Shown: piece after piece, positions 21,484 through 58,527 of the stretch
Position numbering within the stretch: position 1 is the first letter of the stretch
How the letters are laid out: each line of letters opens with the position of its first letter
Origin: Chrysomallon squamiferum
Taxonomy: Eukaryota > Animalia > Mollusca
Assembly (NCBI GenBank): GCA_012295275.1
Contig: CM022679.1
Span: forward strand, 17,422,001 to 17,486,000
Length of the DNA: 64,000 nt
Direction of reading: 5' to 3'
Program-made: the position numbers and the translations under genes
Notes under the pieces: model-generated
What the model saw: the letters and a program-made list of their open reading frames with translations, nothing else
Database searches by the model: none
Told to the model about the DNA's origin: nothing

Positions 21484-22222
21484 TAATAATAATAATAATA
21501 TTGAAAAACAGTTATAAAGATTTATATACTTTTACACTTGTTAAAGTGTTATTAAAATATTAATTATCAGAAAATATAATAATATTTGTTATATATTTCC
21601 TTAGTCTCTGTCTTTTGCGACGCCCGGACACTTTTCCGAGTCCCGACTGTTTTTCAGTAGATATGTTTCTTAGGTCAATATTTTTAAAAATATTATTCCA
21701 CTGCTAAAGCGAAAAGTCATACCGATTTGGATTTGTTTTCTCCAAAATAAATAATTTTATGGTACGGCAACTTTATACGATATTATTAAAGATGGCGTCG
21801 TCCATTCAGTGCATATTTAAGTTTTATAAACACCGCATCTTAGTGGAATTTTGAGATCGAATAGATGGTGCGGCTGGTACAAACCGTTACTTTATTTGGA
21901 TTTCAAACGCAACATTTAAATAAAAATAAAAATTTTAAAAAATCATTTTAATGTGAGTTTACGATAAGGAAAATAAGTTTTATTTACATATATCAATGAA
22001 CTCGATACATTGGTATTTTAGAAAGCCGTGATGCTGGGGCAATGCGGGACCACGACCACGTTGTGGTACTCGTGTAATGGATATGAAAAAAGATTGTAAA
22101 TATGTTATATAAAATTGTCTGTAATTTTGTCCCACTCATGAGAGGGCACATGCAACGTAGGGATACTTTTTGATCGACAGGTCCCATTGTATTACATCAG
22201 TATCAATAATCTTTTTGATTTA

Positions 22223-22268
<46 letters not shown>

Positions 22269-22779
22269 TATAAATAAATGATCAACCTTTCACAAATACA
22301 TTGACTCGGTCTTGCATAAGATTTGCGCACATGACGTACCGAAATCAAGCAGTTGATAAAATTGAGTGTAACGGGTAGACTTACAAATGATTAGGCTGAC
22401 ATCAAAATAAATGAAAAAATATTATAACAGCACTGAAAAGTTATAAAGACTGGAAATTGGCTTGTGTATTTAAAGAAATACAAAATAAATCATTTAACAG
22501 GTTAGGCGAGAGAAAAGAAAAGCGGCTCTTGCAAATAGTAAAATGCTTGCAAGTAATATATTTCTTAAAATTATATTTGATAAAAGATTTACTGAAAATA
22601 TATATTGAATGTTTTAAAAGCTGTTAATAATTTAAAAGATATTGATAATATTTAATAATTTTGAGTAGACAGTTATGTTTAATAATGATGGTAAATGTAT
22701 TTGTGTATGGATAGCACTCAAATCGAACTGGATGTCTAAGCAGTGACTTCGTAAATTCTTTTAAAAAGTCCTCCAAAAT

Positions 22780-23700
22780 TAAAAAGAAAGAAAGCAAGAA
22801 AGCAAGAAATGGATATTACGAAATTCTTTTATTGTGCCGTGTTAAATATATCGGTGCGCAGCATTAAAAAGCGTTGATCGAGACAAAGAATAAAACTTCA
22901 AAGGATGGCTGCTGCAGCTCTGGATGAACATGCTTTTAAGAAATGGTATTTATTTCATTATTTTTATTCAGTTAATAACCTATTTAAAGATAAAAAGGTA
23001 ATTCATTCTTGGCTAATATATATTAAATATATTTAGACAATATTTAATTAGCTAAAAAGAAACCATATTTATTTACTTTCAATATGGACGATGTGAATTT
23101 TAAATGGTGGCACGGCTTTTGCTATTTCGACTTCCGGTGTTCAACAAATTTCATAAAGCTCTTGAAAGAACATTATTTGTATCTGTTTATCTGCAATAAT
23201 ACTAAAATGTAGGTTTACTCGTGGAAAATATAAATAATAATACATCCCTAAACCATTTCTCTTGAATTTGATTTGTTTCGCTGCCTGTTACAGTGTTAGT
23301 AGCATGGACCAACAGGAACGATAACTTGTAACGGCGCAAATTACGTCACGGTAAAAAGCCTCAAGAAGTTTCGCCTATTTAATGGGTTCTGAGAGGGCGA
23401 ACATTGACAATTTCAAAAGTTAATGCATTAATCTTATTCCGCATTATACTCTCAGTTTATTATGCATGCATTTACACAAAAATAATCCAGTTTGAAAAGT
23501 TTGATTAAGTTGAAAAAAGTAGTTAGAAAAGGCGCTTGACATGATACGAACAACCATCCTTACCTTTATCAGTTTAAATCATAAAAAGTTCTGAAAAATG
23601 GATGCAAAATAATTTAATTTGGAAGTTTATAAATTTCCGGAAGCTTCCGATCAAAAAGCACTGTGGCAGCATCGAATGCCGACTAGTGTTTACAAACGTT
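22780..23700 (+). promoter_or_regulatory. CpG-rich promoter/first-intron region of DPF paralog A
   Basis: CpG density is high relative to the gene body. There is an ETS-like ACTTCCGGT near 23130 and a CRE-like TTACGTCA at 23341. Motif function is inferred. Confidence 0.45.
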
Positions 23701-26700
23701 TAAAAGTAATTTGTGGAAATATGTCATTTAACTCGTACACATAGATCTCTATTATTGAGTAGAAATTGCACCAGAGGTCGAAACCTTTTTTTTTTGACAT
23801 CATACCATCTCATACACATTTTGTACTATATATTTTTTCAGATATTATTACGATATCGCCAGCCAAAAAATGAAAAATAATAAAAAATAAAATAAATAAT
23901 TTTAACACACACTGGCACGTGAATATGAAGATGACTATTGTCATTAGGTATCATAATGTGGACACATTACTCTGCTAATACTAATTATTTTTAGCTCAGC
24001 TAGAAGGGTCAAAGTTTAATCTTTCTAACTGTGTGCATGTCGTTGCTGGCAATGTCTTATATCAAAAGTTGTGTCCAATAATGTACTTTTTCATGCCTTC
24101 AAACAAATTTAGAAAAAAAAATTGGCTGAAAATAAAACCAGTGTTCACGGGATCAAATGAAAGATCATTCAGTTACCTTTCAAACACTATGGTGTGTCTT
24201 CTTTGGTGAAAAGAAGTTCCACGTTTGAAAGTAGCATGTGCTTAGTGAAATTGCTGTAGATTTTATGTGCAGCTAGAAAGGTCTGGCGCTGTTTAAAATG
24301 ATTATATTTATATGTTGTTTATATTTTTAATTACTTGTTGGCTGTTTTTCTTCAGTATTCCTACTTTTAGCGTATACATTATAGCATGTGTGTAGCGAAA
24401 TCGCATTCTGAAATAAATGAATTAACATTGTTTTGCCGATTACTATCTTCCATTTAAAACTGGGGGTTATTTTGATTTCAAAATAAACAAGAATCATAAA
24501 CATAACAAACTATGCTACATAATAGAACAATGTATTCAGAGGTATTGATGGAATGCTGAATAAAAATCTAATCACTTTTTACAAATATATAATCATAAAT
24601 TGATCACTTGTAAAACATTATTTTTGCTTGTTGATAAGCTCTGTGAGAGAAAATTTCTCTGAACTTTACGCATACATGTAGGCCTACAATGTCTTACTCG
24701 ATCAAGAAAGATAGTGATTCCTAGCATCCAGAATTGATCATTCAGGTTTTAGTTAATCAGATGTTAATGGCTGAAAAGGAGTTATTTTCATGTATGTGCA
24801 TTTTTAAAATCTATATTGTGGCTAAACAAAAAATATTACACCCAGTACACTTTTATATGTTTTAGTTAACATGTGGGAGATTAAATTTCAATAAAGGTCA
24901 TCTCAAGGTCACGTGTTCCACACAGTCAATTTCAAGGTCATAGCAAAGGTCACACGGTCAGTGTACTCCAATATTTTAAACTGAACAGATTTGGAATCCT
25001 TGTCATATTGCCTTTTCAACAATACCAATTTTATGAAGATTGGCCCAGTATTTCCTGAGATAAGAGGGTTCTATGGTTGGTGGTCACACCCATTTTTGCC
25101 AAAAATCTCCAAGTTCGGTGGGCCATATCTCCCACACCACTGATCCGATTGGGCTAAAATTTCAGATTTGGTGCTGTTGGATCCCAGTCAACAAGTATAC
25201 CAAGTATAAAAATCTGAGACGGTTCGGTTTAACCCATTGGGTGATTTGACACAGAATGACCCATATATATATATATACATACACACATCACTGTATCTTA
25301 ACATATTACTACCAATTATTTAATAGAGTGAAAATTGAAGCTGCTTATGTAAATAAAGTTGTGCTGTTCCATATAAATTGAAAAGGTAATTTTTTTATGG
25401 GCTTGGCAAATTTTATTTTATTTTTTTAATTAAAAATGTGAGATTCAAGCATGTCATTTGAAACCACAGTGTCTATTTGAACTTTTAATCATTCTGCCAT
25501 GTGTCTTGTTGAAAATTTTGGCATGTTTAACTTAAGGTGATAATGATTTGTTTATGGTCCATACAGTTAAATTAGATGAAATTTGTGACTGCTAGAAAAA
25601 TGTTGCTGATCTGCAGATTTTGAACAAATGAAGTTAAATGTTTGATCTAAATGAAATACTAGTCTTGGAAGTTAAAGTTACTCAAATTTTTTATTTATTA
25701 TGTATTTTTTATAACTGAGTTTTTCAAGATATTTGTCTTCAAGAAAATTAATAATGCATCAGGAATAGCAAAAGGAAACATTTGATAGTGATGCAGTGAG
25801 AAAATACGTCTCTTAAGTCACTAATTTTCCAACAAATTTTCTTTTTCTTTGTTGCAAAATACACAGACATATCTTTTTATCTCTAGTATGGGGAGTCCAC
25901 AGTTATATAAAGAAGCAATAGAACAAACAGCAAGTTTCAATACAAGGTTATCCATAGAACGCAAATTACGATTGCCATTCTTGGACTCACAGACAGGAAT
26001 AGCTCAGATTCATAGCACTCTGTATCAACATTACACTCATAGACAGCCAGGTTTGTTTATCTTCATTTTCACTTTTTTTTTTCCGTTCATAAATTCACAG
26101 CTGAGGCTATATTAATTTGAGACTTTTAAGAATTCTGATGAGCTTAAATTCATTCTTGATGTAATTGTTAAAAATAAAAATGCAAGTTTCAATAAACCAC
26201 CTAATTTTGCATTTGAAATGTGGTTTTATTAACATAATATCTATGCAGTTATTATTCCATAATTTTAATTTTTATAAGTTAGTAATTAATGAAATAATAA
26301 GTGAATTTGGTTTTTTCAGGAGATAAACATATATGTGGTCAGTTGTATTCCTATCCAGCCAAACGTTGGAAGAAGAAGAAAAGATCTTTTTTCACATCAG
26401 ATCTCAAAGTGGCTCAGGCTGCTGTTCTGGATGCAGATGCAGGTATTGTTCTATTTTGGCTTGTTGTTCACTTCAAATTTATTAATTCAATATTCGGATA
26501 TTTAATTGTTATTTTATATTAATGGTAAAAATTGTACTCTTTCAGTTTATAAGAAAAACAGAAGAAAAATACTTAAATAGGGATGAATTTTTTTTTTTTC
26601 ACAATGTTTTGAGCTTTTTATGTTTCATTCATAACTTTCTTTAGTTGTTTTTCATTTTCCTTCAACAACATTTGAAAATTTTAATTAATATTTACAGATC

Positions 26701-29700
26701 AGATTCCTGAGTTTACAGTTTCACTGCGCAGAAGACGCCCACCTGGTAATATTTATAAATCTTACATGAATGTATACTTAGACGCATTTCTACATATTTT
26801 TTAAATCTATAATTTGTCAGATGGCAACTTCAGCTAAGACTTTTGCTAACCTATTAATAGTTTTTACATTTCATTGGTGAATAATTGAGCAAAACAAGAT
26901 CTTTTTAAAATTGATGATAAAGGTTAATAAATAAAAAAATCAGTTCTGAACAGATTTATTGTCATAAACTTGCATTTTTTCTTTGAAGCAGTAGTGTTTT
27001 CTACTGTGTCATGGTTTCTCATAATGTCATCACGGAATTGTAACATTCATGATGAAATCAGTTTATTTAAGTTGCAAGGAAAAGCCAGAACAGGGCAGCA
27101 GAGGAACAGGCCAGTTATACTAGTTGTTAAGTAATAATTTGTTTTCATTCATATCTATTTTCCCTGATAGATATACATCATGTAAATTCTGTAGACAGTT
27201 CAGCACATCGTCATGGTGATGATGATGAAGACACACAGACAGAGTCACAGGACCAGTGGTATGAGAATTTTGGGATGTTTGATGAGCCGCCTGATGCTGG
27301 AGAAATGGTCGATGATCAATCAGACATAAGTGATTATGAAGATACAATAAGGAAAAAGAAAAGGAAGGTCAGTTGTCTTGTCCTAGTGATTTTCATTTTA
27401 GCAACAAGTGTAAATGGAAATGGGTCAACTGATAAATCCAAGAATAAAAGAAAGATATCTATCAAATCACATCTTGAAGCATGAATAAGGTCAGAAAAAA
27501 GGTTGTTACAATAAATTTGATGGAGGAAAACAATATAGTGACATACATGTTGTTAGTGAGGACTAAGATAAAGTGAACATTATAACATTAACCATATTAC
27601 ATTTGAAGGCTGGATCATAATTAAAAAGGTTGGTTATATTATTAATGTAAAATTTACATTTTAGCTCGAAAGGTTTTTATTTAATAATTTCATGATACTT
27701 TAAAAATAACAAAGAAAAGAAACATAATCACTTCACAGTATATAAATTTGCAACTTATTATATGTATGTAATTATTAAAATTACAATTACAAAATTTTCA
27801 TTTTTCTCTGTCAAAAGGCATATCCAAAATTAGCTGTTACAAGTTGAAAGTTAATTTGTGAAATGTGTAGATAAGATTTATTTAGTTAAACTTAGCTATA
27901 CTTAATTCTAATGTGTTTATAGCCTGGGCCTGGCAGAGGAAGGAAGAAGAAACAAGAGGTTGACAGAGACAGTATAATTGATGATAAGGAGAAACCCTAT
28001 GTGTGTGAATGTAAGCATTGAAAATGGTTTCTTTAATTTAATGTATTCTAATAATAGTTAATTTTTTAATGAATTGTTATTACAAACAAATCTTGAATTA
28101 AAAAGAATATGCTAAATTAGAAAGCTCAAAAACAACGTGGATGAATCATATTCTTCATTAGGTTTGAAATTTCAGTATTTTTAATCAGAGTAACATTTTT
28201 TTATTTATTTGATTTAATAACCTTTATGGTTTCAAAAGAAATGATAATTATTTTTTTTAAAACATCTTGTAGCTTGTGGTGCTAGATATAAATCACGGCC
28301 TGGCCTGCAATATCATTACACGCACTTCCACAATGGAATGATGGATGAGGACACAGCATCTTTGTCACCAAAACCACAGACACGCTCCAATGGAGGCAAG
28401 TACAGGAAATCCATGCCTCATACTTGTGGATAAAAATCAGGAATCTTTCATATCTTTATTTCTTTGTTGTACAAAACTGCATGCTGTCGTCTTTTTTTTG
28501 TGACTGTTTTTTCTCGTTATAATAGCAGTATTCTTGAGAATATTTGATTCTTATGTTATATCGGCTACTTTTTGTTTAGAAAATCAGTACTTTATAGTCT
28601 TTAAATTAAAAAATAATAATAATAATATTAAAGATTATGTTAATATTTGATTTTTATATTTAAAGTTTTGTACAGTGATACAGACTAATTTGCATTTTAC
28701 TTAAAAATAAAATTAGGCATGTGAGTCATTATTTGAATATGTTTAATGCTCTGGTTAATTAATTGAAATCGTTTTCTTTTTTCTCTTTTTAATTATTGTT
28801 TTTCCACTTTGTCATTCTCTTTTTTATTTTTGCTTTTTCAAAGTTTCACCATTTCCATTTTCTTTTGTTATTTAATATTTTGTTGGTATTTAAAAATATA
28901 TTACTTATTTTCTCTTTTGCTCAAGTGGTAATCATTATTTTTATTTTTTAATCTTCTGAGAATAACATAACAATTTAAAATATGTTTGATTATTTTGTTT
29001 TAGCATGTTAACACATACTGCTGCATGGATGTTATTAATTTGTTTTTGTTCTTGGTTCTTATTGAACTGACATAAAGCTTTACAGATTCTTTTAATGGAG
29101 TTTTCTTTAATACAGATATTTATCTTCTGCTTTAAATGTCAGGACAAATCTTTTGAACTTTGTTTTATCGTACATATTTCTATATTATAAATTGGTATAT
29201 GAAGGAAGAATTCTATAGAAAATTATAAACATAAATTCTTTTCTTAATTTGTGTAGAAATTCATAGGATGTTTTTAATGCAAGTTTATTACAGGCATATA
29301 TGTATTTGAGTTCAAATGCAATTTTATTTTGAACTTGTGTTTTGTTAACTGTTGGCATGCTAATTTGTTTTTTAAATGTGCATGTTTGTTTCAGTTAACT
29401 CTTGTAGCAGCAGACAAAATTACTTAACTTAGTAACTAGAAAGCAGTTTTTAAAATATCTCTATTTTCTGATGATTAAAGATACATATTTGTTAAAATCT
29501 TGCATGAAGCACTAAAAATTATATATTTTGCATGATTAATTAATGTTGTTTGGTCAGAACTTGACATCGTATAGTTTTGAAAAGAAATCAAATTTAAATA
29601 TTAGTAATTTCATTAGGCATTTAGATATGGTGTCTGTGGCTCTCCCAAATTATCTTGATTGACATAAATTTTGTTTGCTCATTTAACATGGCAGTTAAAA

Positions 29701-32700
29701 TCTATTAATTTCTTTATTTTTGTGTCGCTTGAAAAGTGTTGATTTTGTGTTGGAGAGTGTAATTCATTTATCAGTTGCTTCAGATGTCAGAAACAGAACT
29801 CCTCTTCAGTAAAATAGAAATGTTTTATTTTAACAGTTAATTATTACTAAATAATTTACAAATAAATGATGTAGTTTTGACTTATTTCTTGTATGGAACC
29901 TTGAGCTCCTGTAAATAATTTGTCCATAAATTTTGATTTTTTTTCTTCTAATAAATACAAATACCTGTAAAATTTTATGTTTGTTTTATTAAACCTTTTG
30001 CAAATGTTTTTGTTGTAGATTTAATTGTGTACTTTATAGAGTTCAAAACATTCTCAACAGATCAAAGTTTGTATCGTTTATGCATTGAAAGTAAATCGAT
30101 TATACTGAAGTGTGCATTAACCTTTAACTATTATTATTTTAATTTTTAATTTTTAATACTGTTATCATTTTCAATATTTTTACTTTTACCTGAATGTGGT
30201 TGGTACAGAAATTATGTACTAAAATATTATAGCATTAAAAAAAAAAAATGAATGTTATAGGTGATTTCTTATCTGAATGATTGATTTTGCTTTTGCAAAG
30301 ATGTATTTTCTTTCTCCTATATACACTTTTCAGGCGAAACAAGGTAGCTGCATGCATTTATCTGCATTTGTAACATGGGACATGGGTTGGGCACCCAACA
30401 ATTATGGTGTTACTGGTATTATGTCACTCAGAGGGAAGACATGCAATATTGTTGCACAAGTTGTCATTTGAAGCACGTGGGTGGTTAGGGGGTTATTAAT
30501 TAAAATGAAATTATAATGTAAGATACTTTTTACTGTTTTTTAAGTTCAGATTTATAATTTGTTTTTGTTTTTAAATAAATGACATTTTCAGATTCAAGGA
30601 ATCAAATAAAAATCTGAAAATTTTTGTATTTTTAATGGATGAAATACTTTTCAAAGGAGAGGTCTTTTGAAATTCCAAAATGGAGCAGATGATAAACAGA
30701 AAACTAAATATTTTGAAATGAACATTTGCGATCCTTCTTAAGTAGTTTTTAATCATACATTAATTTGATATTTAAAAAAAAAAAAAAAAATAACTTATAC
30801 TACCTTTTTAAAATGGTGATAATTTTAAAAAAAAATACAAATGGTGCATTAACAGCAAGCTACACAAATCACTGGATATGCTTGATTTACAAATTTCACA
30901 TGCCTGTCACATTTTTAATTATTATTTTTTAATCGTAACAAAATGGATGTGTAATGACATTTTCTTTGAAGTGTCTCAGTGGTACAGTGCCTTTCTCGGT
31001 TTGTTTCAGGAGGGAGGCGTGTCTACCGTCGTTAGTTCTTCTAGTCTTCTCTTTCTCTACCAAGACGTTCATAAAAGGATGTACAGTATGTTTAATATGC
31101 TTTAGAAATAAAATTTTCGTCACTTATTCAAATGTCGCTAATCATAAATGGCATCCAGCACCTTTCACATACAGTTTAATCTCTTTTTGTTTTTGTTTTT
31201 TTGTTTTTTTGGTTGTTGTTTTTTATGACAGAAGGGGGAAAGAAGTTAAGTGTCAAAAAGTTGTATTAATACACCATCTTCTCATATTCATTTTTGAGGA
31301 ATTTTTTTGTTTTGTGTTTATTATTTATTTTCATTATTTAAGAAAGATATTTTTATAGCTAAAATATTGAATTTAAAAGTATTGTAATTTTTATCATGGA
31401 ATAAAAACTGTGACACTGAAGTTTCTGTTTAATATTTGCTATTAATTATGACTGATTTTCGAAGTTCATTGTTGCTCACAAACATTTGGTTTTCCTGTTT
31501 TAGCTTTATTGGTGTATGGTGCCATTCATAATTGGTGATTTTCATTGAAGTAAGTAAAGTTAACAAATAAACTAGGTTTTAATCAGTTCCTGAATTTAGA
31601 TGGCTATTTAAAATCTGTTTATACACTTGTTCATTTATTTTATTTTTTATTTTTTAAAAGATATATTTAAAAAAAAAAAAATAACGTTACTTTTATATAT
31701 TTTTATTTTTTATTTTTTAAAGAATAGGAAACAGGGTTGCATGTTGGGTGGGTTATTTAAAAACCTTTGCTTTAGATTCTTTTTATTTAGTTTACAAAGC
31801 TTAGATAGTTCTTTTATAATCCTTCTTTTGCGTAAAAATACACTATCATTCAACCTCAGTATAATACATTGGCTTGACCAATCCTTTGATGTGTGTGAAG
31901 TAAATGATTGTTTCATACATCACTGTCTCATCTCTGCTGTGGCTGTTCCTTACCACAGATTACATATTCTAAACAAAATTGGTTAGGTATTTTTGCAAAT
32001 TTTTCTTCTCTTTTCTGTTTTGATTTTAACACTCTCCCTCTTTTATTGGTCAAAAGAGCCACAGACACATACTAAATGTGTGATTGATAGATTAATATGA
32101 TTTTGTTTCAGAAAACAGTGAAACAGTTTCATAACTTTGTTTCTGTTTAATGTTATGATGTAGAATTTTCTAAATGTATAGATTCATAAAACATTTATAC
32201 ACATAATCCAGTTCTCAAATGACATATTTGCAAATTAAACTTAACATTTTTGGTAACTTCTTGTAGGAATTTATATTTATGTATTATATATTTATTTAAA
32301 CAAAGATAAATGGTATCATGAGGTATTTAAAACAATGACGTTTAAATAAGATCATCTTGATTTATTTTCTTTCAATTTTGCTACAATCAATATTTATTTA
32401 CTTCTTTTTGGATATAAAATTGGATATTCACATTAAAATTTTGTAAGTAAAATGTTTTTAATATAACTAATGTAAAATAATAAAGTATAAGTTTAAAAAA
32501 ATTGTTGACCAAAATGATTGAGAATAGAAATGAATGATAAAGTTAGTAAATAATAATTTGTGGTAAGGGACAGACTCAGCATGTTTTAGTTTCTATTTTT
32601 TTTCTATAAAATATTTTTAGGATTCAGTTTGCTATTTGTTGGGTTTATGCAGATAAATACCTTCGTTTTTTCTTTTTTTTTTATTGGAAGAATTAAGTGA

Positions 32701-35700
32701 AATTCTAACAAAGAAAATTAAATTTGTGCTTTATTGTTATTGTTGTTGTTAGTAGTAGTAGTAGTAGCAGTAGTACTAGTAGTAGTAGTAGTATATTTGC
32801 AGTAAAATAAATTTTTAATAAAAACATTTGTTGTTTTCTAACTTAAGAGAAAACTGAAATAATATTTTTGAAGTGACTGAGGCATTTTCATTTACAGCTG
32901 TATAAACCCTACAATTGCTGTATACTGGACTAATGCACACATATATGTATCAATTTAATTTTTATATTTATTAACTTTTTAAAATTTTGAATTGTGTGTT
33001 TATTCAAAACTTATGTTTTATTTAACAATTTTTTTGAGCCAAGACACCATTGTGTATCCTGTTGTGTTAGAATGTAATGTCTGAAGTAACAAGCAATATC
33101 AGTTGCTCTGTATTTATTTTTAAAAATATTTACAAATTGTTAACAACTATCACTAGTTTTCAACCTGGTAAAGTCTTTTTTGGATTTGCACAGTTTAAAA
33201 ATGTTTATTGATGGTTATTTTCATTCTGAGTGGGGTGTGAGAGACGTGGGGTTGGTGTTTTATATGTGTGTGTGTGTAATATTTTCATTTTCTTCTTTTT
33301 TTTCATACTACACTTTCCTGCATTTAGATACACATACACTTTTAAAATTTAAAAAGTAAATAATGAAATCAGTATTTGGAGGTAAGTAGAAATTGATAAG
33401 ACATATAATTCAACAGAAATGGTACAGATCTAGAAACGTCTTTACCAGTTAAAATGTATTTTACATTAAATCTAATTAAGTTAAAAAGAAAACGTTGTTA
33501 AAAAAAAAAATATTAATAACGGTGAATATTTGATGGGCATTGGTTATACCTTTAAAATGTATTAGTTTTATATGTACAGTGTTCTAATTTGTTCAAAAAT
33601 ATATTTAGTAAAAACATGAAAGATCATTGGTAAAATGATATGTGTACCTAGTGCAAACTGAATTTTATTGCTGTCACTCAGGCATGCATGTTTATCACAT
33701 TAATAGAAACTCTAATACTACTGTTGTGTTTATGTGCATATTCTAAATTTGAAAAGTGTGTGAGTATTTGTTTATATTATTTTAGCAGAGTGTAATGTTT
33801 TTTTTACTGTGTTGTTACAGCAGTGAAAATTACCACAGAGACGAAGCCTGAGTTGAATAGTTATTGTGACTTCTGTTTGGGGGATGCTGCTGACAACAAG
33901 AAAACACAACAGCCAGAGGAACTTGTGTCCTGTAGTGACTGTGGAAGATCAGGTTATTTACTTATTTGTTTTTCAAAAACATTTCATGCAAACTGTACTG
34001 TCTGACAACATCTTCATATGACCATACCATACATTTTTTGGGGGTATGAAAAGTTGTTCAGTTCATATAGACCTGTCATTTTCATTCTAAAATCATCTTA
34101 CAGACACTGTTCCATAATCTTACCTGCTTTTAAGAAATAACATATTCCAGCTATATGCAGCTTAAGGATTTCTTCCAAAACAGCTAACTTTTCTTTATGC
34201 ATAATGAATTCAACTTTATAAAGTTGATGGTGTCCATTTCAAAACTAAATCATAATTTTATCTAATACAGTATATTTATGCTTGACTTGCAACACTCTAG
34301 AGAAACACTGATTTTCATTTAATGTTTGTAAAAACAAAGTTAGTGGTTTTACATGAAAATAGCTAATTTTATATGACAAAAATGATAGTTTATTGCAGTT
34401 GGTGGATATTCTGCAGAAGATACTAATTAAAAAGAATTAAATAAAAAGATATCAGATTACTATTGTCCATAATACTCATCACAAACTTTTCTCTTCTTGA
34501 TTTTCACATTTCTTCCCTACTTGTAATTTAATAGCATATCATATTTTCAGGTCATCCCACATGTCTTCAATTTACACAGAATATGATAGTGTCTGTAAAG
34601 AAATACCCATGGCAGTGCATTGAATGCAAGTCATGTGGACTTTGTGGTACCTCAGAAAACGATGTAAGTTTTATCTACTGTTACAAAACCTAACTTTTAA
34701 TGGGTTATTATTTTTTTTTCAACAGAAAGTTACAAATGGTATTGTTCCCATCTAATCTTCAGTATGCCTTCAGTTATGATTTATAAAGTATGAATGTTTC
34801 TTTCATTTAAAAAATTAAGTATCACCACACTGTAATAGGAAAGATTTGTAAAAATTCTGAATTCTTTACTTTCAAGCAAACTTAGATGGCAGCAGAACAT
34901 ATTTCCAGTGAATAAAGACATCAGCTTGTACAAACTATGTATACACTTAGCCATCTGTCTTTTTAATGTTTTCTTGATAGGAACAAGTTTTATTACACTG
35001 CAGTGAAAATAACTGGAGATTAGCATCCAAAAGGTCATTTAACTAAAATTCCATTATAAAATGTATTAAAAATATTTAGTATTGATTTGTATTAAATGTT
35101 TCAGGATCAGCTGCTGTTCTGTGATGACTGTGATCGAGGTTATCACATGTACTGTCTGACACCGCAGTTGCATGAGGCTCCAGAAGGTGAATTTTACTTT
35201 TTTTTTTTTTTTTTTTTCATCGTGCAATTTTTTTACTATTATTGCATGCTCTTGTAAAAAGATTATGGCTTTTGATGAATAGTTTGATTACAATTCCTGA
35301 ATTGGTAATTGGCAAAATGTTTAATACAATTCAATAAGACACCTGTAATGTTATAAAAGCGTTCTGCACCTTACTGTAAGTTTTTGTTAAATTATAGCCC
35401 GTTAAAATCAAGTCTGTTATTTGTGATATAATTACACAGTATAGCTCTAAAACTGGCATTATATGTTTCTGTTCTTATCTATTGATTAAGGATATTAATA
35501 CCTTGGTTATTTTTGAATAAGCAGATATGTAACAGTTTACTGTTTGACTGTTATTTATGTGTAGTTAAAATTTTTGTTTATATAGGCAGCTGATTCCTTT
35601 TTTTATATCTGTATTACAGTTCAATTATTTAGAAATAAGTAATATTATTTCCAGTATGTTAATAAATCAAATCTGTTTTTATATACGTGTTACAGTATAA

Positions 35701-35849
35701 TTATTTAGTTATAAACAAAAGTAAATTATTTCAAATATCTAAAAAATGTATTTTTCTTAAACTCATGTTATTCACTTTTAGGCAATTGGAGTTGTCATCT
35801 GTGTATTGAAGAGTTCCACGGAGGTAAGAAACCAGCAGGTATGCAGTGA
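22905..35849 (+). CDS. DPF2: d4/DPF/Requiem family BAF-complex subunit (BAF45-like; Requiem N domain, C2H2 finger, double PHD), paralog A, about 392 aa
   Basis: Exons 22905-22945, 25887-26050, 26320-26442, 26698-26745 (less certain 48-nt exon), 27171-27367, 27923-28010, 28273-28395, 33821-33952, 34551-34663, 35105-35186 and 35782-35849 join in consistent phase (1179 nt). Motifs: [119 protein letters not shown]. The symbol denotes the family; it is co-orthologous to vertebrate DPF1/2/3 and fly d4. Confidence 0.95.
24870..25263 (-). mobile_element. Probable non-autonomous DNA-transposon fragment in DPF intron 1
   Basis: GC-richer island with clustered AAGGTCA repeats (24892-24960). It ends in a terminus-like GGGTCATTCTGTGTCAAATCACCC on the minus strand abutting a (TA)n tract. 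The partner TIR was not found. Confidence 0.5.
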
Positions 35850-38800
35850 ATGTTTCTATTGTTAGAGTGAAGAAATAGCTTACTGTCAAAGTGAAGTTCA
35901 TAGACTGAGTGTAGAGTGTGATCACTCTAAGTTTTGACACGTCCTTTTAAAAAACCACAGAGGTCACAACTGGAGATAATTCTCATTTATTACCATTCAT
36001 AACACCATCCACTACAACATTGGTATGTACATCACCATATGAAGCATAAATTGTTGTTGTCATTTGTTCTTTCCTGAAAATAAGGTATTTTTATGTCTAT
36101 TTTAATGTAGTGTTATTAAAAGAAAAATATTGTATGCAAACAAAAAAATGTGCGATGAAGTGGAGTTGATCTTTTATAAATTAAATCATGTTAATAAATG
36201 AAAAACTTTCAGTGTTGTGGTTCTTAGAATTTTGTTTTTATTTACCTCATGATTGTGTTTTATCTAGAATTTTTCAAAGACAAATATTTTGCAATGTATC
36301 AATGTTCTTTTTTTATTCTTGAATATTTTTAAATAATAATTTTTTCTGGGTTTATTTCATGAGAAGAATCTTTAAGAAATTATTGTTTCTTTTATGTGTA
36401 TGAGACAAAAATAAATTTTGAAAAAACAAAAGATTTTACCTTTAAAACACAAAAAAACTAAAATAAATTCACCTCACTGACTCTACCTGTCTTTATTATT
36501 AACCTTTTGTCTCTTAATGCAAGCAATAAGTTTTTAAATATAAAACAAGTCTTAATTATTATTCTGTTTACTGGAATGATAGGCATTTTTAAACATTTTT
36601 AATACTTGTAGTCTGTTACCAGAGTTTGAACAAATAAACTGGTTTGAAGATTGAAGACTCGGACACAAATCTTGTTAAAATTAAAATAATAATCATAATA
36701 CTGTCAAAATTTTTATTTAAAGTCTTCATATTATTTATATTTTAATATGTAAAAGTCAAATTATTATTATTATTATTTTTTATTATTTCACAGATTATTG
36801 TTATTGTTACTAAAATTCTTTGCTTGTTCATGTTGTTCTGGCAAACAATAATAACAAAGAGGAAACCATTAAAATGCTTATGACTTCCAGAATTTAATTA
36901 GTCATTACAGTAAGCAGTTTTAGGTGTTTTTTTTTTTTTTTGTTTTCTTTTTTTACACATAAAAGTAAATAATCAGATATGATAATTTTAGTTTGAATTG
37001 AGGTACAGAATACTTACTATTTCTTGTTCTGAAATATATTTGTCTCTTCTGGAGCTGGTACATATAAATAGTACAATGTCAGGGTTATTATTTTATTTTT
37101 TAAAGATAGTTTATTTTATAAATTTTGTAGTATTTTTTAAAAATATTTCTTTAGCCTTACACTTACTACAGCAATCAGTATGTATTTTTATTTAATTGTA
37201 TAAAAACAGCTAAGAAGAAACCCAAATGAACAAAAAACAAATTCAGCTAAACTAACTGGACCAAAAGGAAAGGGAATATATATATATATATATAAAACAA
37301 CAAAGTTTAGGCAAATAAAAATTCTGGCATTTAGATTAGTTTGTTACAAAATATTTTCTGACATTTGTAGTTACGAATCTGCAGTTTCTTCCAGAGCAGA
37401 CATTGTCATTCACTTGTAACAACCAGTCTACTTGTTTTCACATATATATAACATTAATATTTGTCATTCTGTACCATTTCTTCATCCTCTTATGTTATGT
37501 TACCCATTCATTGCCATGTCAGTTTATTATGTCATTTTATATATGTTAATGTCATTCTTTTATCAATATCTGTCACCATTATTTATGACAAAAAAATACA
37601 GTAGACTGACCTTACAAATATATCCAAAACATTGTTAAAAATAATGAAATAAAATGAATTGTCATATTTAGCATCATTAAACTTCAATGTTTGTGCAATA
37701 ACATATCTTAAAATTCATATCACATTAAATAAATAAAATATCATTCTGTTTTTGTTGTTACATTTCATGAGAATCAATCTGTTGTGTGTATGTTTGTATA
37801 TTATATAAACAGTTTATTAATAGTCTGGTTAAACTGGAGAGCTATCTGCATAATGCATATTCAAAGCCATTTTTTTAAAGTACATAATATATTCTAATTA
37901 AAATGTCACCAACTTATTGAATGTGTTATCACTGCTGTATGTGGTTGTCTATTCATGTAATAATTTGTAAATTACTTGTACTTTAAAAAGTCCTTATAAA
38001 CCAATTCAGTAAATAAATAACAAAAAATAAAAATCTTTCCAAAAACATATCTATTTTATTTGTTAAATTTGTTTATGTGCACCAAGTACTTATTCCTAGC
38101 ACCATTATGTCTTTCTAAGCCGTGTGTTGTTATATATTATTTAACAATTTTAGCTTAGCAGGTTTCTGTGGATTGTATAATTTTATTTGCTAAAATGTAA
38201 TCATTAACAGTTGTTGATAAGTGTAAATTGTAATATAGGAAAAGAGCATCCCAGTGGATGTGAAAAAGAGAGAAAGAAAAAAAGAAACATATTTAAGTAA
38301 ACAGCCCTACCTAATTTGTGAAACTATCCAGGAAGAGGAACTAGTAAGTGGGAGGTAATATGACAGTGCCAGAAGCAGCAATTACCTGCTGCAGTAAAAC
38401 AACTAGAAAATTGTATCAGTTATTTTTATAGATCATCTCTGAGGCTTTATTAACATGCAGAAGAGCTCTGGAAAATTACCTCGATTTACTATGGTCATCA
38501 TAAAGTACTACATAAACTAAACTAGAAAACAATATAAACTAATATTTAAAAAAAAAAAAAAAAAAAATTCCCTTTGGTCAACATAAAAAAGAATAAAACC
38601 CTCTGCCAAAACAAAGTGCTGCTTTTTCAATTAGCAGCAAGCAGCATTAGGGAAGAGTTCTGAAATTACATGTAAAAGAATATATGCATGTGCATTTGTA
38701 TTTATGCCTGTCACTGAATAAATATTACACAACAACTATAACTGTTATATAAAACAAATACATATATATATATATATGTATGTAAAAATAATAATGGGCA

Positions 38801-41800: not shown

Positions 41801-43027
41801 ACAATTAAGATACAGTGATGAAAATTGATTAATCTTGATTCTTATTTACATGTATGATGTACATGTACATATAAACATATATACCAGTTGTTATATACAT
41901 ACATACATACAAAGTATTATCTACAAAATAATAATTATAAAAAAAAAAAAAAAAAATTTGTTTATAAACAGTTGCACCATTCAACTTTATTTTAGAAAAT
42001 TTCAGTTATAATCACAACATTTTTAGAATGTTATGTCTAATGAAGAATCAAGTCATGGTTATATTTTATTATTTCGTTTTCCTTTTTCACTTCTAGAGAC
42101 TGTAATTTCACATAAAGTCTTCTGAGCACTTACTGGAATTGGAAAACAAATTAACTGTATGATCAAATATACAAGTATCTCATACACTATTAAACATTTT
42201 AGGAATAAAATATTCAAACTTAGTCAAAAACTCCAGCACCATGAAAAATACTGAATGAAAAGTATTGTATACAGTTATTAAAATATATTTCATTTTCCAA
42301 AAGCAAAACTTATTTTAAAAATTATACTTATTCTTGAACAGATTAATTTGCTAGACTTTGAAATATTGTCCTTATTGTTGAAGAATAATTAAAAATACCA
42401 ACATTTGTTACTACAAAAGCAATTATCTATTACTTGTATGTGCTCTGAGACAATATGATCCCATACTAAATTAAAAAAAATAAAATAAATACAAGTAATT
42501 TAAAAAAAAAAAAAGCCTGAATAATTTTCATTACTTCTGAAATTATATCTAAATTTTTAATAATATTTTTGTGCAAAATGTTATGCTCTCATTATAAGAA
42601 GTACATTGTGTCACAAATGAAACTACAAAAATCTGAATTAATGTCATTTCCACTGCATGATTCTGTGAAATGAAAAAAGTCAGCACTAATTTAATCAGAA
42701 TGCATCTTAAAATAATAACTCTTAACACTCATTTTTATTTTAAATTTATTTTTTATCTTCTTTTTCAGTTTAAAATAACAATATAAAAAGATAAAAACAA
42801 CAGATGGATTAGGGTTAAGTTGCCCTCACAACTCACTTATCTTTCTTCACTGAATTATTATATGAAAAGATTTTTTAAATACTCTTCTAAATTCAAATAT
42901 ATATTTTTAGAAGGAAGAAAAAGATAATAATAATAATAAATGTATTACTTCCTAATCAGAACATTTTTAAAATACTGAAAGAAAAATTCATTAAATTCAA
43001 AAAATAAAAAATAAAAAATAAAAAAAA

Positions 43028-43059
<32 letters not shown>

Positions 43060-44213
43060 AATAATAATATTAAAAGAAAAAAGAAAAAAACCAACACAAA
43101 ACAATAACAAAAAAACAACAAAAAAAACATCAACAACAAACAAACAATATTAAAATTGTAAATATATATTTTCTTTTTAGCCGAAATAATTAAAATAATG
43201 TTGTATAATCATAAACAGATTATGCATAAATTAAACCTGAGAGAAGTTTTGAAGAAAGATTTGCTCAAACACAATTTCCGCACTTGATTAATCTCTTTTC
43301 TAGGATTAGATTTAAAATATATGCAGTTTTGTAAGATCTATTAAATATTATTTTGATACAATACAAAAAACAACAAAAAAAACCCCCAAAAACGATATCT
43401 ATATTTTGGAGACAAAGGAAGACATTATTTTTTTTTTTTTTTTTTAAATAATATATCAAAAGTATAAAAATATTTTAAAATTTTATGATATAAATCATTT
43501 ATACCAGTGAACAGATTTAACAAGATCAAGATCTGATAGTGAATTAATGTACGATATTGTCTTGGAAATACAGAAAAATAAAGAGGACCAAATCTAGCAC
43601 TGTTTAAAACTGCTGGTGTGTATTAGCCAACATATGCTTTAAAATAAAAGGAAGAAACATCAGTTATATCTATTTCACTTTAGTTACTTCATACTGAAAT
43701 AAAATAGATTGTGATGTTTTATTAGCAACATAGAGGCACTAAATGATATCTGTGATATAAACACTTGTTGATAAATAAAATAAAAATAAATTATTAATTT
43801 TTTTTTCAATGTATTAAAATCAAGTTTATATCAAATATATTGTAAAACTGAGTATTCAGGCAGGCTATCCTTCATTCTGAAACTAATTCTTGTAATATAA
43901 AAAAAGTTTAAAATAGTCAAGATCTTTTTTCACATTATTAAAAAAAAGTAGTTATCCATACAGTAAGATGAATTTCCATTATCCTTTCTTTTATTACTTA
44001 ACTTTACAATACGTTATATCTGATAACTTAAAAACTACAGACACCCCAATCCTATTTTTTAATATCCTTTCTTTCTAAATCACTGCTCTTCAGGATGGGA
44101 GGGGTAGAGCACACAACACAAATCTGACTTTTAGTGCACCATGATATTTAAACCTACCTGTGGAAAATGTACATTTTTTTCAAAATGAAGTATATGAACT
44201 AGAGTAGTCGTGG

Positions 44214-53099
<8,886 letters not shown>

Positions 53100-53800
53100 C
53101 TTCTGGTGCTATTTATTAAGTCACCAAATGGACAGCTAACAGGAACTAAATTTCGAAATCAAGTGGATAAGGTTTATATCAACATCCTCGTTCGACTGTC
53201 GCGAAATTTAAGAATTCCAAATGAAACTCATCCTTAATTGGTATTCACTCTAACAGATCTCGTCCCTTATTCACGCCATCAATTGTTGTCACAGAGGCAA
53301 CGGTATCCATAAATAAAAGAAAACGACATTTTGTGAACAGAATGTCTACCAATACAGTTTAACCTACGAAAACGATGTCTCCATAATCAATGGCGGCTTC
53401 CGATAATATTAATCCGCATCTAGTTATAAGAAATAGGTCTAGGTTCTGTGTAAAATAAACCGTGATTTATTGAGTGAAAATGAATTTTTATCATCTTATG
53501 TATTGGCAAAGATAATTACTTATATAATATTATTTGTTTTTAATATTTATAGAATGAACTGTGGGATAAACAACTGCAGCAGGTTATTCAGATCAGGTCA
53601 AAGAGCAAGCACATGAAAGTTCTTAAGACCCATTTCAATGACCTCCGTTATCGGGTAAATAGGTCAAATGAACCTTGAGTGCTGAATGTGACCCACTGAC
53701 CGCTACATAACTGGCAGCTTGTGTTCACGGTTGATTGTTTTGTAAACATGCCGACTGCGGAAACTGTCTGTTATACTGACTAGTTAATTAGCGATTTACA
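53100..53800 (-). promoter_or_regulatory. PTEN 5' UTR/promoter (CpG-rich)
   Basis: CpG density rises directly upstream of the PTEN ATG. There is a YY1-like CAATGGCGG at 53388. The TSS cannot be determined from sequence. Confidence 0.5.
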
Positions 53801-56565
53801 TATAACCTATGAAAATGAGAGATGTTCATTAGGAAAAGTGTCAAAAATATTAAACATCAGAACAAGTTTATATTCATAATATTGACTGCAACCACACTTG
53901 ACACACTGATTTAGAAATTATTCCATTATCGGATTACGATTAAAAACACTCAGTATGACGCCATTATTAATATTATTATTATTATTATTTTAAAAATAAT
54001 AATTATCATTACATATAATAATTCTTATTAATAACAATAACAAGGAACAGGTAAAGTCAATGCCACATGCAACGATTATATACAAAGTGCAGCAAGCACT
54101 TACTTAGTCTTAAAAATTCTGGAGAAAACAGTAACATATAAAAACTATACAGATTGTTTAGCATTTAAGAATAAATTAATCTGATCAGTTTACCTATTTT
54201 TTGTTGTTAGAAACAAAAAAGAAGGCAGTTCTTTCATGAAACATTTGTTTATATAATTACAATTTACGTACAGGTGCAGAGTTTTCCAGATCACTGCTGT
54301 CTTTGTGTGTAATAATCTGTAATTAGTCCAATGTGAAGTTGATTACTAGTGGCTCTGCGTACCTATAAATCAAGCCAACTGGATTCTGCTTACTTCTTTT
54401 CAATGTTTGTGCATATTTTATTTACTTTCCTAATTATCCATTTATTTTGACAAGTACAATGCACAATCTCAGTATCTATCCTAATGGAGATTAAAAAATA
54501 TGTATGTATTTTTTTTTAATATTTAAGAATCCAAATTAATCTCAACAAAAACAGACAACTGAATAATTTTGGCCACACTTGATAAAATTATCTACAGCAG
54601 AACTATACAATGGACTGATGAGATTGGGATTTAGCACATATTAATATACATTCATGCTGAAATAGAACACAAAAACATCTTAATATGCTTCTATCTCTGT
54701 TTGATTTATACTGAAATGTCATTTACAAAGAGAAAACACAAACACTATTTCATATCAGTTAACATCAAATTTATTTTGCAGGTTTATGATATTGCACTAA
54801 CATTTTGGGTCCTTTTGTCAAACAGAATATATAATTTTAAACAAAAATTACAAAAACAAAAAAAATAAATGTCAGTTATCATTTATTTTACTAAATGTAA
54901 CTGCTACATTAAACAATGACCCTTTATTAGGTTTTAAAAATTTCAGTTAACTCTTAATTTTTCTGATACAGACGAACCCAAAACAAATACAGTGGTACAT
55001 ACCAATAATAAAAATCGTGATTTATTTTCATATTCTGATTAACTGGTTTCAGTTCTGTGATAATCTTCTCCACTTATTCATTTTCCACAATACTTTCTAA
55101 TTAGCTTTAAAAAAAAATTATTACTACTGAAAGTGATTATTTTAAATTGATATTTACATATTTCAGGTTGTCTAAAGTAAAGTTGGTATTATACCAGGTT
55201 TTCATAACATATATGTTCAAAGTATACACTTTCAAAGTTACAGTGTCAGAACAAACACAAATCAATAACAAAACTAACTGTATCTTGTTTAGAAAATATC
55301 ACAATACTGGGATATTCTTTCACTCCAACGAACTGTCTGTGCTTAAACAATTTTAAAGTGCCTCTTCTCAGTTTATTCTGATATTTTAAAATTATAATTC
55401 ACAAAATATTTACTTCGGGGAGTGTGTGGATTTTAAAATTATTATAAACATGAGCTTGACAAATTTACAAAAATTCAGTTTAAATGTTTTTTAAGAACCA
55501 TCCTTTGTATTGTTTGTAATCCAGCAGAAACAAACATAAAATGTATATTTTGTGTTCCAAAAACAGTGCAGCAAATATAACAATAATTTTTTTTTTAATA
55601 CTTTATTGCTTTGCAAATTAATTTTGTTCCCAAATAGTCCATAATCAAAACAAAAATAAAAATAAAATAAACCATACACAAAAAACCTCAATCAAAATAA
55701 AACAATAAAGCTGACAATTTTGTCACACAGCTTGTTCAACTGATAAATAAAAACCTGTCATTAAAGGAATGTTTTTCCTTTTGTTCTACATTTTCAACCA
55801 TTCAAAATAGGTCATTAAGAAAGAAAGACAAAATTGTTTCTTCAAACTATTTATTAACTTATGAATATAAATGTTATGCTAATCATTTTTGATTACTAAA
55901 TAAAAAGAAACAAAGAAGATGAAATATTTTGATCCTAATATCAGACAGCAAAAAAACCCACATTATTAATATTACAGCCTTCTATTTCACATTTTGTAAT
56001 CAATACAAAATGCTTAAAGAAGCTAAATGCTATAAAAATCAAAATATTTGTTTAAAAATATAAAAATCTTTAAAAAAGAGAAAACATAATACTGTTAAAA
56101 AAATGTAATGCAATGACCTCTGTATACAGTGAAAAAAAAACAATAAGTAATATAAAAGAATATCAAAAATGTTCAACCATCTCAGCTCCAAAATAAAGAA
56201 GAAAATAACTAAGTGCAAATAATGTATCTTGATTGAAATGCAAAAAGCTGGTTAAAAATTCTAGTTAGTAAGCTCTCAACGTAAAAAGCACATCTGTACC
56301 ATATTTTTCTAATTTCATCTCTGTAAAATCAATCTAATTAATATAAAAATAAAAACAAATATTCCTTAGAAGCACCATCAATTTTTAGTGGAAATAAAAA
56401 AAACCAAGAAAACCCCCCCCAAAAAAACCAATGAAAAAACACCTCTATGCTCACACCTTTGTGTTCTTTATACATGTGGTGAAATTAGAATAAATATGGT
56501 ACATAGCAAATGTGTGTGTGAACTAACATGGCATTCTTTTGACACAGACAACATCAGAGACTTTT

Positions 56566-58527
56566 TCATTGCTTTTCATTTTCTTTCTTGTCTCCATGGA
56601 ACTCTTCAATGCACAAATGACAACTCCAGTTTCCTGAAATGTTAAACAGAGTTTTTGAATATAATGAAAAGAAATGTCTTGGATTAACTATATTACCGGT
56701 GGCTTTCAGCATTCATAGTACATTTCACCCACTGATCTCTCTGAACTTGTGGTTATCTTCAGTATTTAAAATTAAATTTCCTATATTTAATTTTTTTTTG
56801 ATAAAAGATGAACCACATTTTGTTATCAACACTGATAAGTACATTCACTTAATGAATTGTTTTAAAAAAAAAGTTACTTAATTCAGTAACTAAATATTCT
56901 GACTGTAAAGATTAGAAGTTTTAAAATATATCGTAATTAATAAGTTATTTAAAATAGTTGTCAACATTACCTTCTGGTGCTTCCTTTAATTTAGGTGTCA
57001 GACAGTACATGTGATATCCCCGGTCACAGTCATCACAAAACAGAAGCTGATCCTGAAGCATAACAAACTACATAGTACTATTCAGATTTCCACAGTAAAG
57101 ATGTTTGTATATGCACACACACACACATATGCAAGGATTAGGAACTTCTGAATTACTTTGTCAAATATTGAAATAATATAATTTCATTGTTTTCTTGCAT
57201 TAAGATCTTTATTTTCCTAATGAGTTATTACAAACAAAATGTAGAATATTAGTATTCTGTGCACCAAATTTTAAAGTATTTCATATCTGCATGTTATTCA
57301 TTATGTTGGTGAAATAAATTTTCCTCAAAACGTATTTTGTTAATGTTTTAATTTAGTTTGACAAAAATGTCAATGGCCAAAAAAGCAGGTTGACATACAT
57401 CCGAATTTTCATCTTTAATACACATTCTATGGTGTTTAATTAAAAAAATCAAATCAGTTTATTTGTTTTCAAATATTTTGAGCATTGCAGTATTTAAATA
57501 TACATCACTTTGTAAATGTCAAGGGAGATAATCTAATGAAAACTATTAGGTAGCCAACTGAATATAATCACATCAACATATTAATAGAAACAGAATAATA
57601 ATAACAAGCAGAAATAAAAATAATAAATTACTTACATCATTTTCTGAAGTGCCACAAAACCCACAAGACTTGCATTCAATACACTGCCAGGGGTATTTCT
57701 TCACAGAGACCATTATATTTGGAGTAAACTGCAGACACGAAGGATGTCCTGTAGCAATAATATTTTCTCTAATTAAATACTTATCTTGTATGACATGTCA
57801 ATAAATTACAAACGAACACACATGAACAAAACAATTAATAGTTCAAGCACAAACTAAAACAAATTTAATTATTTAGTTAAATGATACAGAAACTGCAAAA
57901 GTATCTAAATATATCTAAAATTTCACAATATATACTGGTATCAATTAGCCAACAGCAGAATTTTCAACTACAGAAGCTGTTTAAACCCTCTGAACATATT
58001 CAAAAAGAATTATTTTACTTGTCTATTCAGTTAACTGCAATCGATAATTCTACATTACACATTACCAAGTCTCTCAGTTTCCAAAAATCTGAAATACTTT
58101 TTCCCTGAGAAGCAGAAATAGTATTTTACACCAGAGTTTTCAAATTATTTTGCATGTACAAACTTTATTATATGCATAAAATTATTTAAAATATTATATA
58201 AAAAATCCTGCAAGCTATCAGTAAAAGCTCTATATAAAATATAAATGGAATTTCTATCATGTTTTCAGGCTATCTTTTATTCAGAAATCAAAAACACTTC
58301 TGGTCAAGTACTGTGAATAAGGGAACTTGAACCTGTACCTTGATTATTTAAAAAGACATGATAGTTCCTTAAATTTAAATAATATTAAAGACAATTACCA
58401 GATCGACCACAATCAGTGCATGAAATGAGCTCCTCTGGTTTATTGGTTTTCTTGTTATTTGCAGCATCTCCCAAACAGAAATCACAGTATGTATTTGGGA
58501 CAGGCTTCTTTTCTGCATTTTTTCCTG
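56566..58527 (-). CDS. DPF2: Second d4/DPF/Requiem paralog (B), 3' four coding exons (double PHD); 5' exons outside the window
   Basis: Exons 58527-58399, 57748-57636, 57052-56971 and 56633-56566 encode [129 protein letters not shown]. Splice sites and all Zn ligands are intact. The symbol denotes the family. Confidence 0.95.

What the first reader, a model, noticed from the sequence alone, without database searches (positions are those of the whole stretch)
22905..58527. Two intact DPF/d4 (BAF45) paralogs in inverted orientation flanking PTEN
Seen: DPF-A(+) -> <-PTEN <-DPF-B(-). The last three coding exons have identical lengths in both copies (113, 82, 68 nt) and the PHD1 exon differs by one codon (132 vs 129). 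The PHD peptides differ at only 5/38 and 2/27 residues in the two central exons, while many synonymous sites differ and the introns do not visibly align. The C-termini diverge (GGKKPAGMQ vs GDKKENEKQ). Known: vertebrates swap BAF45 paralogs between progenitor and neuronal BAF complexes, whereas invertebrates usually have one PHD-containing d4 gene. Inference: an old, lineage-specific local duplication kept under purifying selection, which could allow independently evolved BAF45 subunit switching in an invertebrate.
Basis: partly seen in the sequence, partly recalled or inferred. Interest (0 to 1): 0.8.

Follow-up and report, generated by a model that had tools for sequence, protein, structure and literature searches.

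The report
Reader-only d4 duplicate in vent snails
A snail carries, beside its complete chromatin gene d4, an old inverted partial copy that keeps the four histone-reading exons intact and likely lacks the part that anchors d4 in the BAF remodelling complex, so it would be a free histone reader rather than a swappable BAF subunit.

Summary
In detail: a complete d4/DPF gene (A, + strand, 392 aa), PTEN (- strand, 476 aa) and a second set of four DPF PHD exons (B, - strand) with the stated lengths. A versus B shows near-saturated synonymous change and pN/pS about 0.12, so B is old and under purifying selection. But B is probably not a full paralog. No Requiem_N or C2H2 exon lies upstream in the window, a promoter-like CpG-rich kilobase directly precedes its first PHD exon, and the vent snail Gigantopelta aegis has both a full-length d4 and a 131-aa PHD-only model that matches B at 121 of 131 residues. 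A 4-nt start exon at 59388 gives the same length and N-terminus. All ten DPF2 histone-binding positions checked are kept. A 121-species survey found no d4 gene lacking Requiem_N, the part placed in the BAF core, so B would be the mirror image of Drosophila toothrin: a free reader, not a switchable BAF45. No reads could be laid, so the 5' end is inferred, and a split annotation is not excluded. New variant of a known kind; interest 0.5.

The parts
21500..24100 (.). CpG-rich promoter and first-exon region of gene A
   Evidence: CpG o/e 1.0-1.8 in 500-nt bins against 0.29 in the gene body
22905..35849 (+). Gene A: complete d4/DPF, 11 coding exons (22905-22945, 25887-26050, 26320-26442, 26698-26745, 27171-27367, 27923-28010, 28273-28395, 33821-33952, 34551-34663, 35105-35186, 35782-35849), 392 aa: Requiem_N, C2H2, double PHD
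   Evidence: Open 1179-nt frame; exon 2 hits Pfam PF14051 at E 1e-19; 336 of 377 residues identical to G. aegis XP_041362515.1
44214..53099 (-). PTEN, 9 coding exons, 476 aa
   Evidence: Open 1431-nt frame, all 8 introns GT-AG; named from the recalled phosphatase motif and N-terminus, not from a database call
53000..54100 (.). CpG-rich promoter region of PTEN, at the 3' end of B
   Evidence: 26 CpG per kb, o/e 0.96
54100..56565 (-). Likely 3' UTR of B
   Evidence: CpG-poor, minus-strand base skew (z -3.5 and -3.7); not shown by reads
56566..56633 (-). B last coding exon (68 nt with stop), derived C-terminus
   Evidence: A keeps the C-terminus seen in other molluscs
56971..57052 (-). B exon, 82 nt (PHD2)
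   Evidence: pN/pS 0.08 against A
57636..57748 (-). B exon, 113 nt (PHD1/PHD2)
   Evidence: pN/pS 0.09 against A
58399..58527 (-). B PHD1 exon, 129 nt
   Evidence: pN/pS 0.11 against A; 98% identical to G. aegis XP_041364849.1
58528..59604 (.). CpG-rich, promoter-like kilobase directly 5' of B's PHD1 exon (holds the 857-nt predicted first intron)
   Evidence: 25 CpG, o/e 0.99; the matching kilobase of A has 4, o/e 0.24; 0 of 137 overlapping 1-kb gene-body windows exceed 11 CpG or o/e 0.59
59385..59388 (-). Predicted coding part of B's first exon: start codon plus one base, then a GT donor in the phase the PHD1 exon needs
   Evidence: Only such site in 58528-64000; gives 131 aa, 121 of 131 identical to the G. 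aegis model, same length and start. Inferred; by itself not above chance
59800..64000 (-). CpG-poor non-coding stretch with weak minus-strand skew: 3' end of an unidentified upstream gene, or an intron
   Evidence: o/e 0.17, no d4-like or coding-like exon; G-C skew z -1.7 and -2.5; 0 of 12 frames from 58.9-63.9 kb hit Pfam

Best explanation
B is an old, selectively maintained inverted duplicate of the four PHD exons of the neighbouring d4 gene; it likely has its own promoter and a tiny start exon, likely encodes a 131-aa protein that is only the double PHD finger, and would bind acylated H3K14 without docking into BAF. Shown: the exons, the constraint, the kept binding residues, the CpG-rich kilobase, the same pair of models in G. 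aegis. Inferred: origin by DNA-level inverted duplication (all intron positions and phases kept) with the 5' half never copied or later lost; transcription from about 59.4-59.6 kb (probability about 0.7); function as a free 15-kDa reader that competes with BAF-bound A and with MOZ/MORF-type readers for H3K14ac/acyl nucleosomes and so damps or sharpens remodeller recruitment in some tissue (about 0.45 given the structure; an adaptor role in another complex is the main alternative).
For: B's PHD1 exon finds one protein among 3 candidates of 75-2000 aa: G. aegis XP_041364849.1, 131 aa, not marked partial, Pfam PHD only. G. aegis also has a full-length d4 (377 aa, Requiem_N + PHD); both records list a longest contig of 81,591,406 nt. 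Among the 120 listed of 1867 longer hits none exceeds 80% identity to the short model, so no full-length B-type protein was seen; the B-diagnostic motifs occur only in B itself among 379 fetched proteins. In the G. aegis model the Met stands exactly at the intron-7 junction, whereas the short ant entry starts at an internal Met of the long form. CpG contrast of 25 versus 4 per kb before the PHD1 exon of B versus A. B pair 100/100 support; all four peltospirid rows together 96/87 in a 35-row tree; window A + window B as a clade rejected, p-AU 6e-10. 117 codons: pS 0.68, pN 0.081, pN/pS 95% bootstrap 0.064-0.189, low in all 4 exons. DPF2 positions D274, F275, C276, R300, E326, C330, L342, D346, R350, W369 are kept in 4 of 4 peltospirid proteins (roles from PMC11648877 and PMC11544104). 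Requiem_N lies in the BAF head submodule while the DPF domain is unresolved (PMC11544104).
Against: No read shows B's 5' end or any junction. The start-plus-donor word is expected by chance somewhere in the 5.5 kb (55% of shuffles; 18% with purine context and GTR). A's intron 7 is 5425 nt, so a matching C2H2 exon of B could lie just past the window edge. Databases hold many short PHD-only entries that are truncations or fragments, and gene finders often invent tiny first exons (own knowledge). Intergenic DNA is as CpG-rich as promoters here (o/e 0.95 at 15-21 kb), so the patch marks unmethylated DNA, not a start site as such. B evolves faster than A (9 versus 2 of 117 residues between species, Fisher p 0.059) and departs at 6 (window) and 11 (G. 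aegis) of 92 positions invariant in 16 other molluscs, which also fits relaxation. The two G. aegis accessions are not adjacent, so shared microsynteny is not shown. The competitor role has no direct evidence.
Confidence: 0.55

Rival explanations
1. B is a full-length d4 paralog whose 5' exons lie beyond 64 kb behind a long intron; the G. aegis 131-aa model is a split annotation or a short isoform from an internal promoter. The first reader's subunit-switch idea would then be open.
For: A's equivalent intron is 5425 nt and only 5473 nt upstream of B are visible. 59.8-64 kb is CpG-poor with minus-strand skew, as an intron of B would be. Truncated PHD-only models are common in databases.
Against: The CpG-rich kilobase has no counterpart in A's intron. 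No full-length B-type protein was seen for G. aegis, which has a chromosome-scale record. Two species independently give a 131-aa form with the same start.
Confidence: 0.18
2. B's exons are a donated 3' module: spliced onto the unidentified upstream minus-strand gene (a chimeric reader fusion), or trans-spliced onto A's 5' exons as in Drosophila mod(mdg4) (recalled), giving a full-length d4 with alternative PHD fingers.
For: B's PHD1 acceptor has the same phase as A's intron 7, and A's exon 7 ends at a weak GC donor. The upstream stretch looks transcribed on B's strand.
Against: No protein with B-type PHD fingers and a longer N-terminus was found. An unmethylated gap separates B from the upstream stretch just as one separates PTEN from B.
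Confidence: 0.08
3. B is a PHD-only gene but works as an adaptor: it reads H3K14-acyl marks on behalf of another complex or transcription factor through its derived surface and C-terminus, rather than competing with BAF.
For: Substitutions shared by both B proteins at otherwise invariant positions (V36I, S39T, M56I, L75F, changes at 124 and 127) and a new charged C-terminus, with the binding pocket untouched; long B stem branch of 0.43 then slower change.
Against: No second domain or linker for a partner; the B tail still changes between the two species.
Confidence: 0.14
4. B is a slowly decaying, functionless partial duplicate.
For: Faster amino-acid change than A, and extra departures in G. 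aegis such as G74R.
Against: Open frame, intact splice sites and all zinc ligands after near-saturation of synonymous sites (pS 0.58-0.81, pN 0.05-0.15 per exon), in two species.
Confidence: 0.05

Closest known systems
d4 family / DPF1-3 (BAF45b/c/d), human DPF2
   Same: Double PHD finger about 75% identical to DPF2 (PDB 5B79, 5VDC, 6LTH chain R); ten binding or disease positions kept. Gene A has the full family architecture.
   Different: B has no Requiem_N and no C2H2 finger by present evidence.
Drosophila toothrin and the D4-less paralogs of spider mite and some bony fish
   Same: A d4 paralog reduced to one domain, kept beside a fuller copy (PMC11678306).
   Different: Those keep Requiem_N and lose the PHD fingers; B does the reverse. 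[quoted passage not shown]
Requiem-less isoforms: Drosophila dd4 isoform B (339 aa), a human DPF1 isoform
   Same: A product with PHD fingers and no Requiem_N.
   Different: Those are isoforms of full genes and keep a long middle region; B is a separate locus and is only the DPF domain.
G. aegis XP_041364849.1 (RefSeq model)
   Same: Orthologue of B: 121 of 131 residues identical, same length.
   Different: An automatic model with a generic name; I found no paper that discusses it.
MicroProteins (single-domain truncated paralogs such as Id proteins; recalled)
   Same: One domain of a larger regulator expressed alone, proposed to compete with it.
   Different: They sequester partners through a dimerisation domain; B would compete for a histone mark. 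Analogy only; one search gave no clear precedent in its 10 listings.

Membership tests
d4/DPF1-3 family (gene A) | N-terminal Requiem_N (2/3) domain | tested here: met
   Exon 2 hits PF14051, E 1e-19, above cut-off
d4/DPF1-3 family (gene A) | Central C2H2 finger and C-terminal double PHD | tested here: met
   Aligns to named mollusc d4 proteins and human DPF2 across both; the C2H2 exon alone did not hit Pfam
d4/DPF1-3 family (gene B) | N-terminal Requiem_N domain, called the hallmark of the family in PMC11678306 | tested here: inconclusive
   Absent from the 5.5 kb upstream and from the G. aegis model; DNA beyond the window not available. Most likely not met
d4/DPF1-3 family (gene B) | Double PHD finger of d4 type rather than PHF10 or KAT6 type | tested here: met
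   DPF2/DPF3 chains score 191-208 bits, KAT6A/B 127-141, PHF10 114; groups with peltospirid A
DPF acyl-lysine reader | Zinc ligands and H3K14-acyl / H3 tail pocket residues | tested here: met
   10 of 10 DPF2 positions kept; Cys/His pattern equals A's except one non-ligand His in A
DPF acyl-lysine reader | Measured binding to acylated H3 | not testable with these tools
   Needs ITC or peptide pull-down
BAF45 subunit | Incorporation into BAF through the N-terminal region | not testable with these tools
   The region responsible appears to be missing; no co-purification data
toothrin-like paralogs | Requiem_N kept, PHD fingers lost | tested here: not met
   B keeps the PHD fingers
Retrocopy | Loss of introns | tested here: not met
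   All three PHD introns kept at the same positions and phases

The most novel reading that the evidence does not exclude
Peltospirid vent snails have evolved the first known stand-alone d4 reader gene: a PHD-only microprotein with its own promoter that titrates BAF and MOZ/MORF off acylated H3K14, a natural tunable antagonist of chromatin remodelling and the mirror image of toothrin. A bolder form not excluded: its exons are trans-spliced from the opposite strand onto d4's 5' exons.
Probability: 0.3. Interest if true: 0.72.

Novelty: new variant of a known kind. Interest (0 to 1): 0.5.

Why it matters
B would be the opposite case, kept under selection in two species. It offers a natural test of whether an isolated DPF domain has a job outside BAF and whether cells use free readers to buffer remodeller recruitment. 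It is not evidence for vertebrate-style BAF45 switching. Partial duplicates are common in genomes and the orthologue already sits in RefSeq as an unremarked model, which caps the interest until transcripts and binding are shown.

Tried and rejected
Whole genome: none held, so nothing beyond 64 kb was seen. Reads: no reads were laid, so junctions, start site and expression are untested. Four RNA runs of one study hold 0.31-0.45 of the 726 sampled words of 52900-60000, more than PTEN's roughly 1.2 kb share of that stretch could give, but the words were not located and I do not count this as evidence. Self-tblastx timed out; replaced by blastp of six-frame segments. Metagenome scan: 80 loci kept of 186, none near-identical to B (at most 76% over long matches, 82% over 39 residues). 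50%-cluster search: 150 listed of 9147, best identity 78%, no further B-type protein. Splice-site matrix was trained on models in which several PTEN boundaries were still misplaced; its scores are not relied on. Divergent plus-strand gene from the CpG patch: no coding-like exon, and skew points to the minus strand. PHD-less terminal exon in A intron 7 near 31010: its peptide motif is in 0 of 259 proteins then held; dropped. Accession adjacency as a synteny test: inconclusive. Dating: in a 16-row tree the four peltospirid rows have only 89/89, and a clade of both A proteins plus Haliotis is not rejected (p-AU 0.13), so an older duplication is not excluded. Earlier scan findings: none returned. 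No structure or complex was predicted, since the fold is not in doubt and a negative would carry no weight. Assembly artefact or allele: rejected on dS about 1.8 and presence in a second species.
Full report
Observation. Self-comparison of 11.3-64 kb finds four inverted exon pairs, 33.8-35.8 kb against 58.5-56.6 kb. Gene A models as 11 coding exons, 392 aa, one GC donor after the C2H2 exon. PTEN lies on the minus strand, 9 exons, 476 aa. B has four exons of 129, 113, 82 and 68 nt.

Organism. The closest named proteins are from the vent snail Gigantopelta aegis (Peltospiridae). Window A is 336 of 377 residues identical to its d4, so the window is from a relative, not that species; I did not determine which. 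For scale only: two peltospirid species are dated to 116 Ma, 95% interval 71-184 (PMC7895826, one passage).

B is probably not full length. (i) Five mollusc N-terminal halves hit only A's exons by tblastn. (ii) CpG is depleted in gene bodies (o/e 0.29 A, 0.23 PTEN, 0.23 B) and near 1 at the starts of A and PTEN and in intergenic DNA; the kilobase 5' of B's PHD1 exon has 25 CpG (o/e 0.99), the matching kilobase of A has 4 (0.24), and 0 of 137 overlapping gene-body windows exceed 11. Reading this as gene-body methylation with unmethylated gaps rests on my own knowledge of invertebrate genomes. (iii) B's PHD1 exon retrieves one protein among 3 candidates, a 131-aa G. aegis model with PHD fingers only, and that species has a separate full-length d4. 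(iv) One start codon with a donor of the right phase exists on B's strand in 58528-64000, at 59388, inside the CpG patch; it gives 131 aa with 121 identities to the G. aegis model. Against this: that word is not rare (55% of shuffles, 18% with context); A's intron 7 is about as long as the visible upstream DNA; many short PHD-only database entries are truncations; no reads were laid and no DNA beyond the window was available. I put the stand-alone PHD-only structure at about 0.7.

Age and selection. Over 117 codons A and B differ at 49.5 of 72.6 synonymous and 22.5 of 278.4 non-synonymous sites: dS about 1.8 (near saturation, so rough), dN 0.086, pN/pS bootstrap 0.064-0.189; per exon 0.11, 0.09, 0.08, 0.21. 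This pairwise value sums both branches and A barely changes, so the ratio on B's branch is higher. In a 35-row tree (33 rows I chose by name from the search hits, one per taxon except two for G. aegis, plus the two window proteins) the B pair has 100/100, the A pair 81/0 and the four together 96/87, bootstrap not fully settled. A 16-row tree gives 89/89 for the four, rejects window A + window B (p-AU 6e-10) and does not reject both A plus Haliotis (p 0.13). So the duplication precedes the split from G. aegis and probably, not certainly, follows the split from other gastropods. B changes faster than A (9 versus 2 of 117, p 0.059) and departs at 6 and 11 of 92 positions invariant in 16 other molluscs, where both A proteins depart at none.

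Mechanism. All ten DPF2 positions checked are kept; D274, F275, R300, E326, L342 and D346 form the H3K14-acyl and H3-tail sites (PMC11648877, passages) and C276, C330, D346, R350, W369 affect nucleosome binding or remodelling by BAF (PMC11544104, passages). DPF domains read acetyl, crotonyl, butyryl and other acyl groups on H3K14 (PMC7800603, passages). Requiem_N sits in the BAF head submodule and carries the SWI/SNF contact (PMC11678306 introduction). These last steps are inference.

Comparison with what is known. PMC11678306 (abstract, sections 1, 2.3, 2.4, 2.5, passages of tables, part of the Table S1 hits) reports single d4 genes in molluscs, duplications in crustaceans, chelicerates, Diptera and vertebrates, paralogs that lose the PHD fingers, Requiem-less isoforms in Drosophila dd4 and human DPF1, and no gene without the 2/3 domain. 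B would be the exception. Searches for a prior description (listings only apart from the five papers named) found none; the main text of PMC7895826 does not mention DPF, ubi-d4, PTEN or PHD, and its supplements were not read. The library lacks most subscription journals, so absence from print is not established.

Verdict. Real feature; old constrained duplication confirmed; 'two intact paralogs' and subunit switching not supported; most likely a PHD-only d4 derivative. New variant of a known kind, interest 0.5.

Noticed in passing
window 594-11293: About 10.7 kb of degenerate CA-rich tandem repeat (36-nt and shorter periods); plus-strand stop-free frames up to 1169 aa that keep shifting frame. 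Looks like a satellite rather than a gene.
   Followed up: no
window 13690-14670: 27 copies of a 36-nt unit at 93% matches; the plus-strand frame 13645-14811 stays open for 388 aa. Minisatellite or a repeat-coding exon.
   Followed up: no
window 28396 and 33821/58527: A's intron 7 has a GC donor, and both PHD1 exons start at tandem NAGNAG acceptors.
   Followed up: partly
window 26698-26745: A's 48-nt in-frame exon 4 is conserved in G. aegis, unrelated in Haliotis and absent from Patella and Liolophura: likely a cassette exon.
   Followed up: partly
window about 31010-31035: An acceptor followed by a few codons and a stop in A's intron 7 could give a PHD-less isoform; no support in fetched proteins.
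   Followed up: partly
window 59517-59760: Small element with about 16-nt inverted ends, 130 nt upstream of B's predicted start codon; MITE-like by recall. Could have contributed to B's promoter.
   Followed up: partly
window 45750-45910 and 46639-46806: An inverted pair of about 165 nt at 76% identity inside one PTEN intron.
   Followed up: no
window 59800-64000: CpG-poor, weakly minus-skewed, no coding exon found: the 3' end of an unidentified gene or an intron; 17-nt inverted arms at 63671-63687 and 63984-64000.
   Followed up: partly
window about 59005-59015, also about 21790 and 53390: YY1-like words (consensus recalled) in all three CpG-rich patches.
   Followed up: no
P0002 (G. aegis XP_041364849.1): The G. 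aegis B carries five further changes at positions invariant in 16 other molluscs (S72T, G74R, I118T, E119K, F121I): possible relaxation or divergence in that lineage.
   Followed up: partly
P0031, P0100, P0006: Short PHD-only d4 models in crayfish, springtail and spider; whether any is a real stand-alone gene like B was not checked.
   Followed up: no
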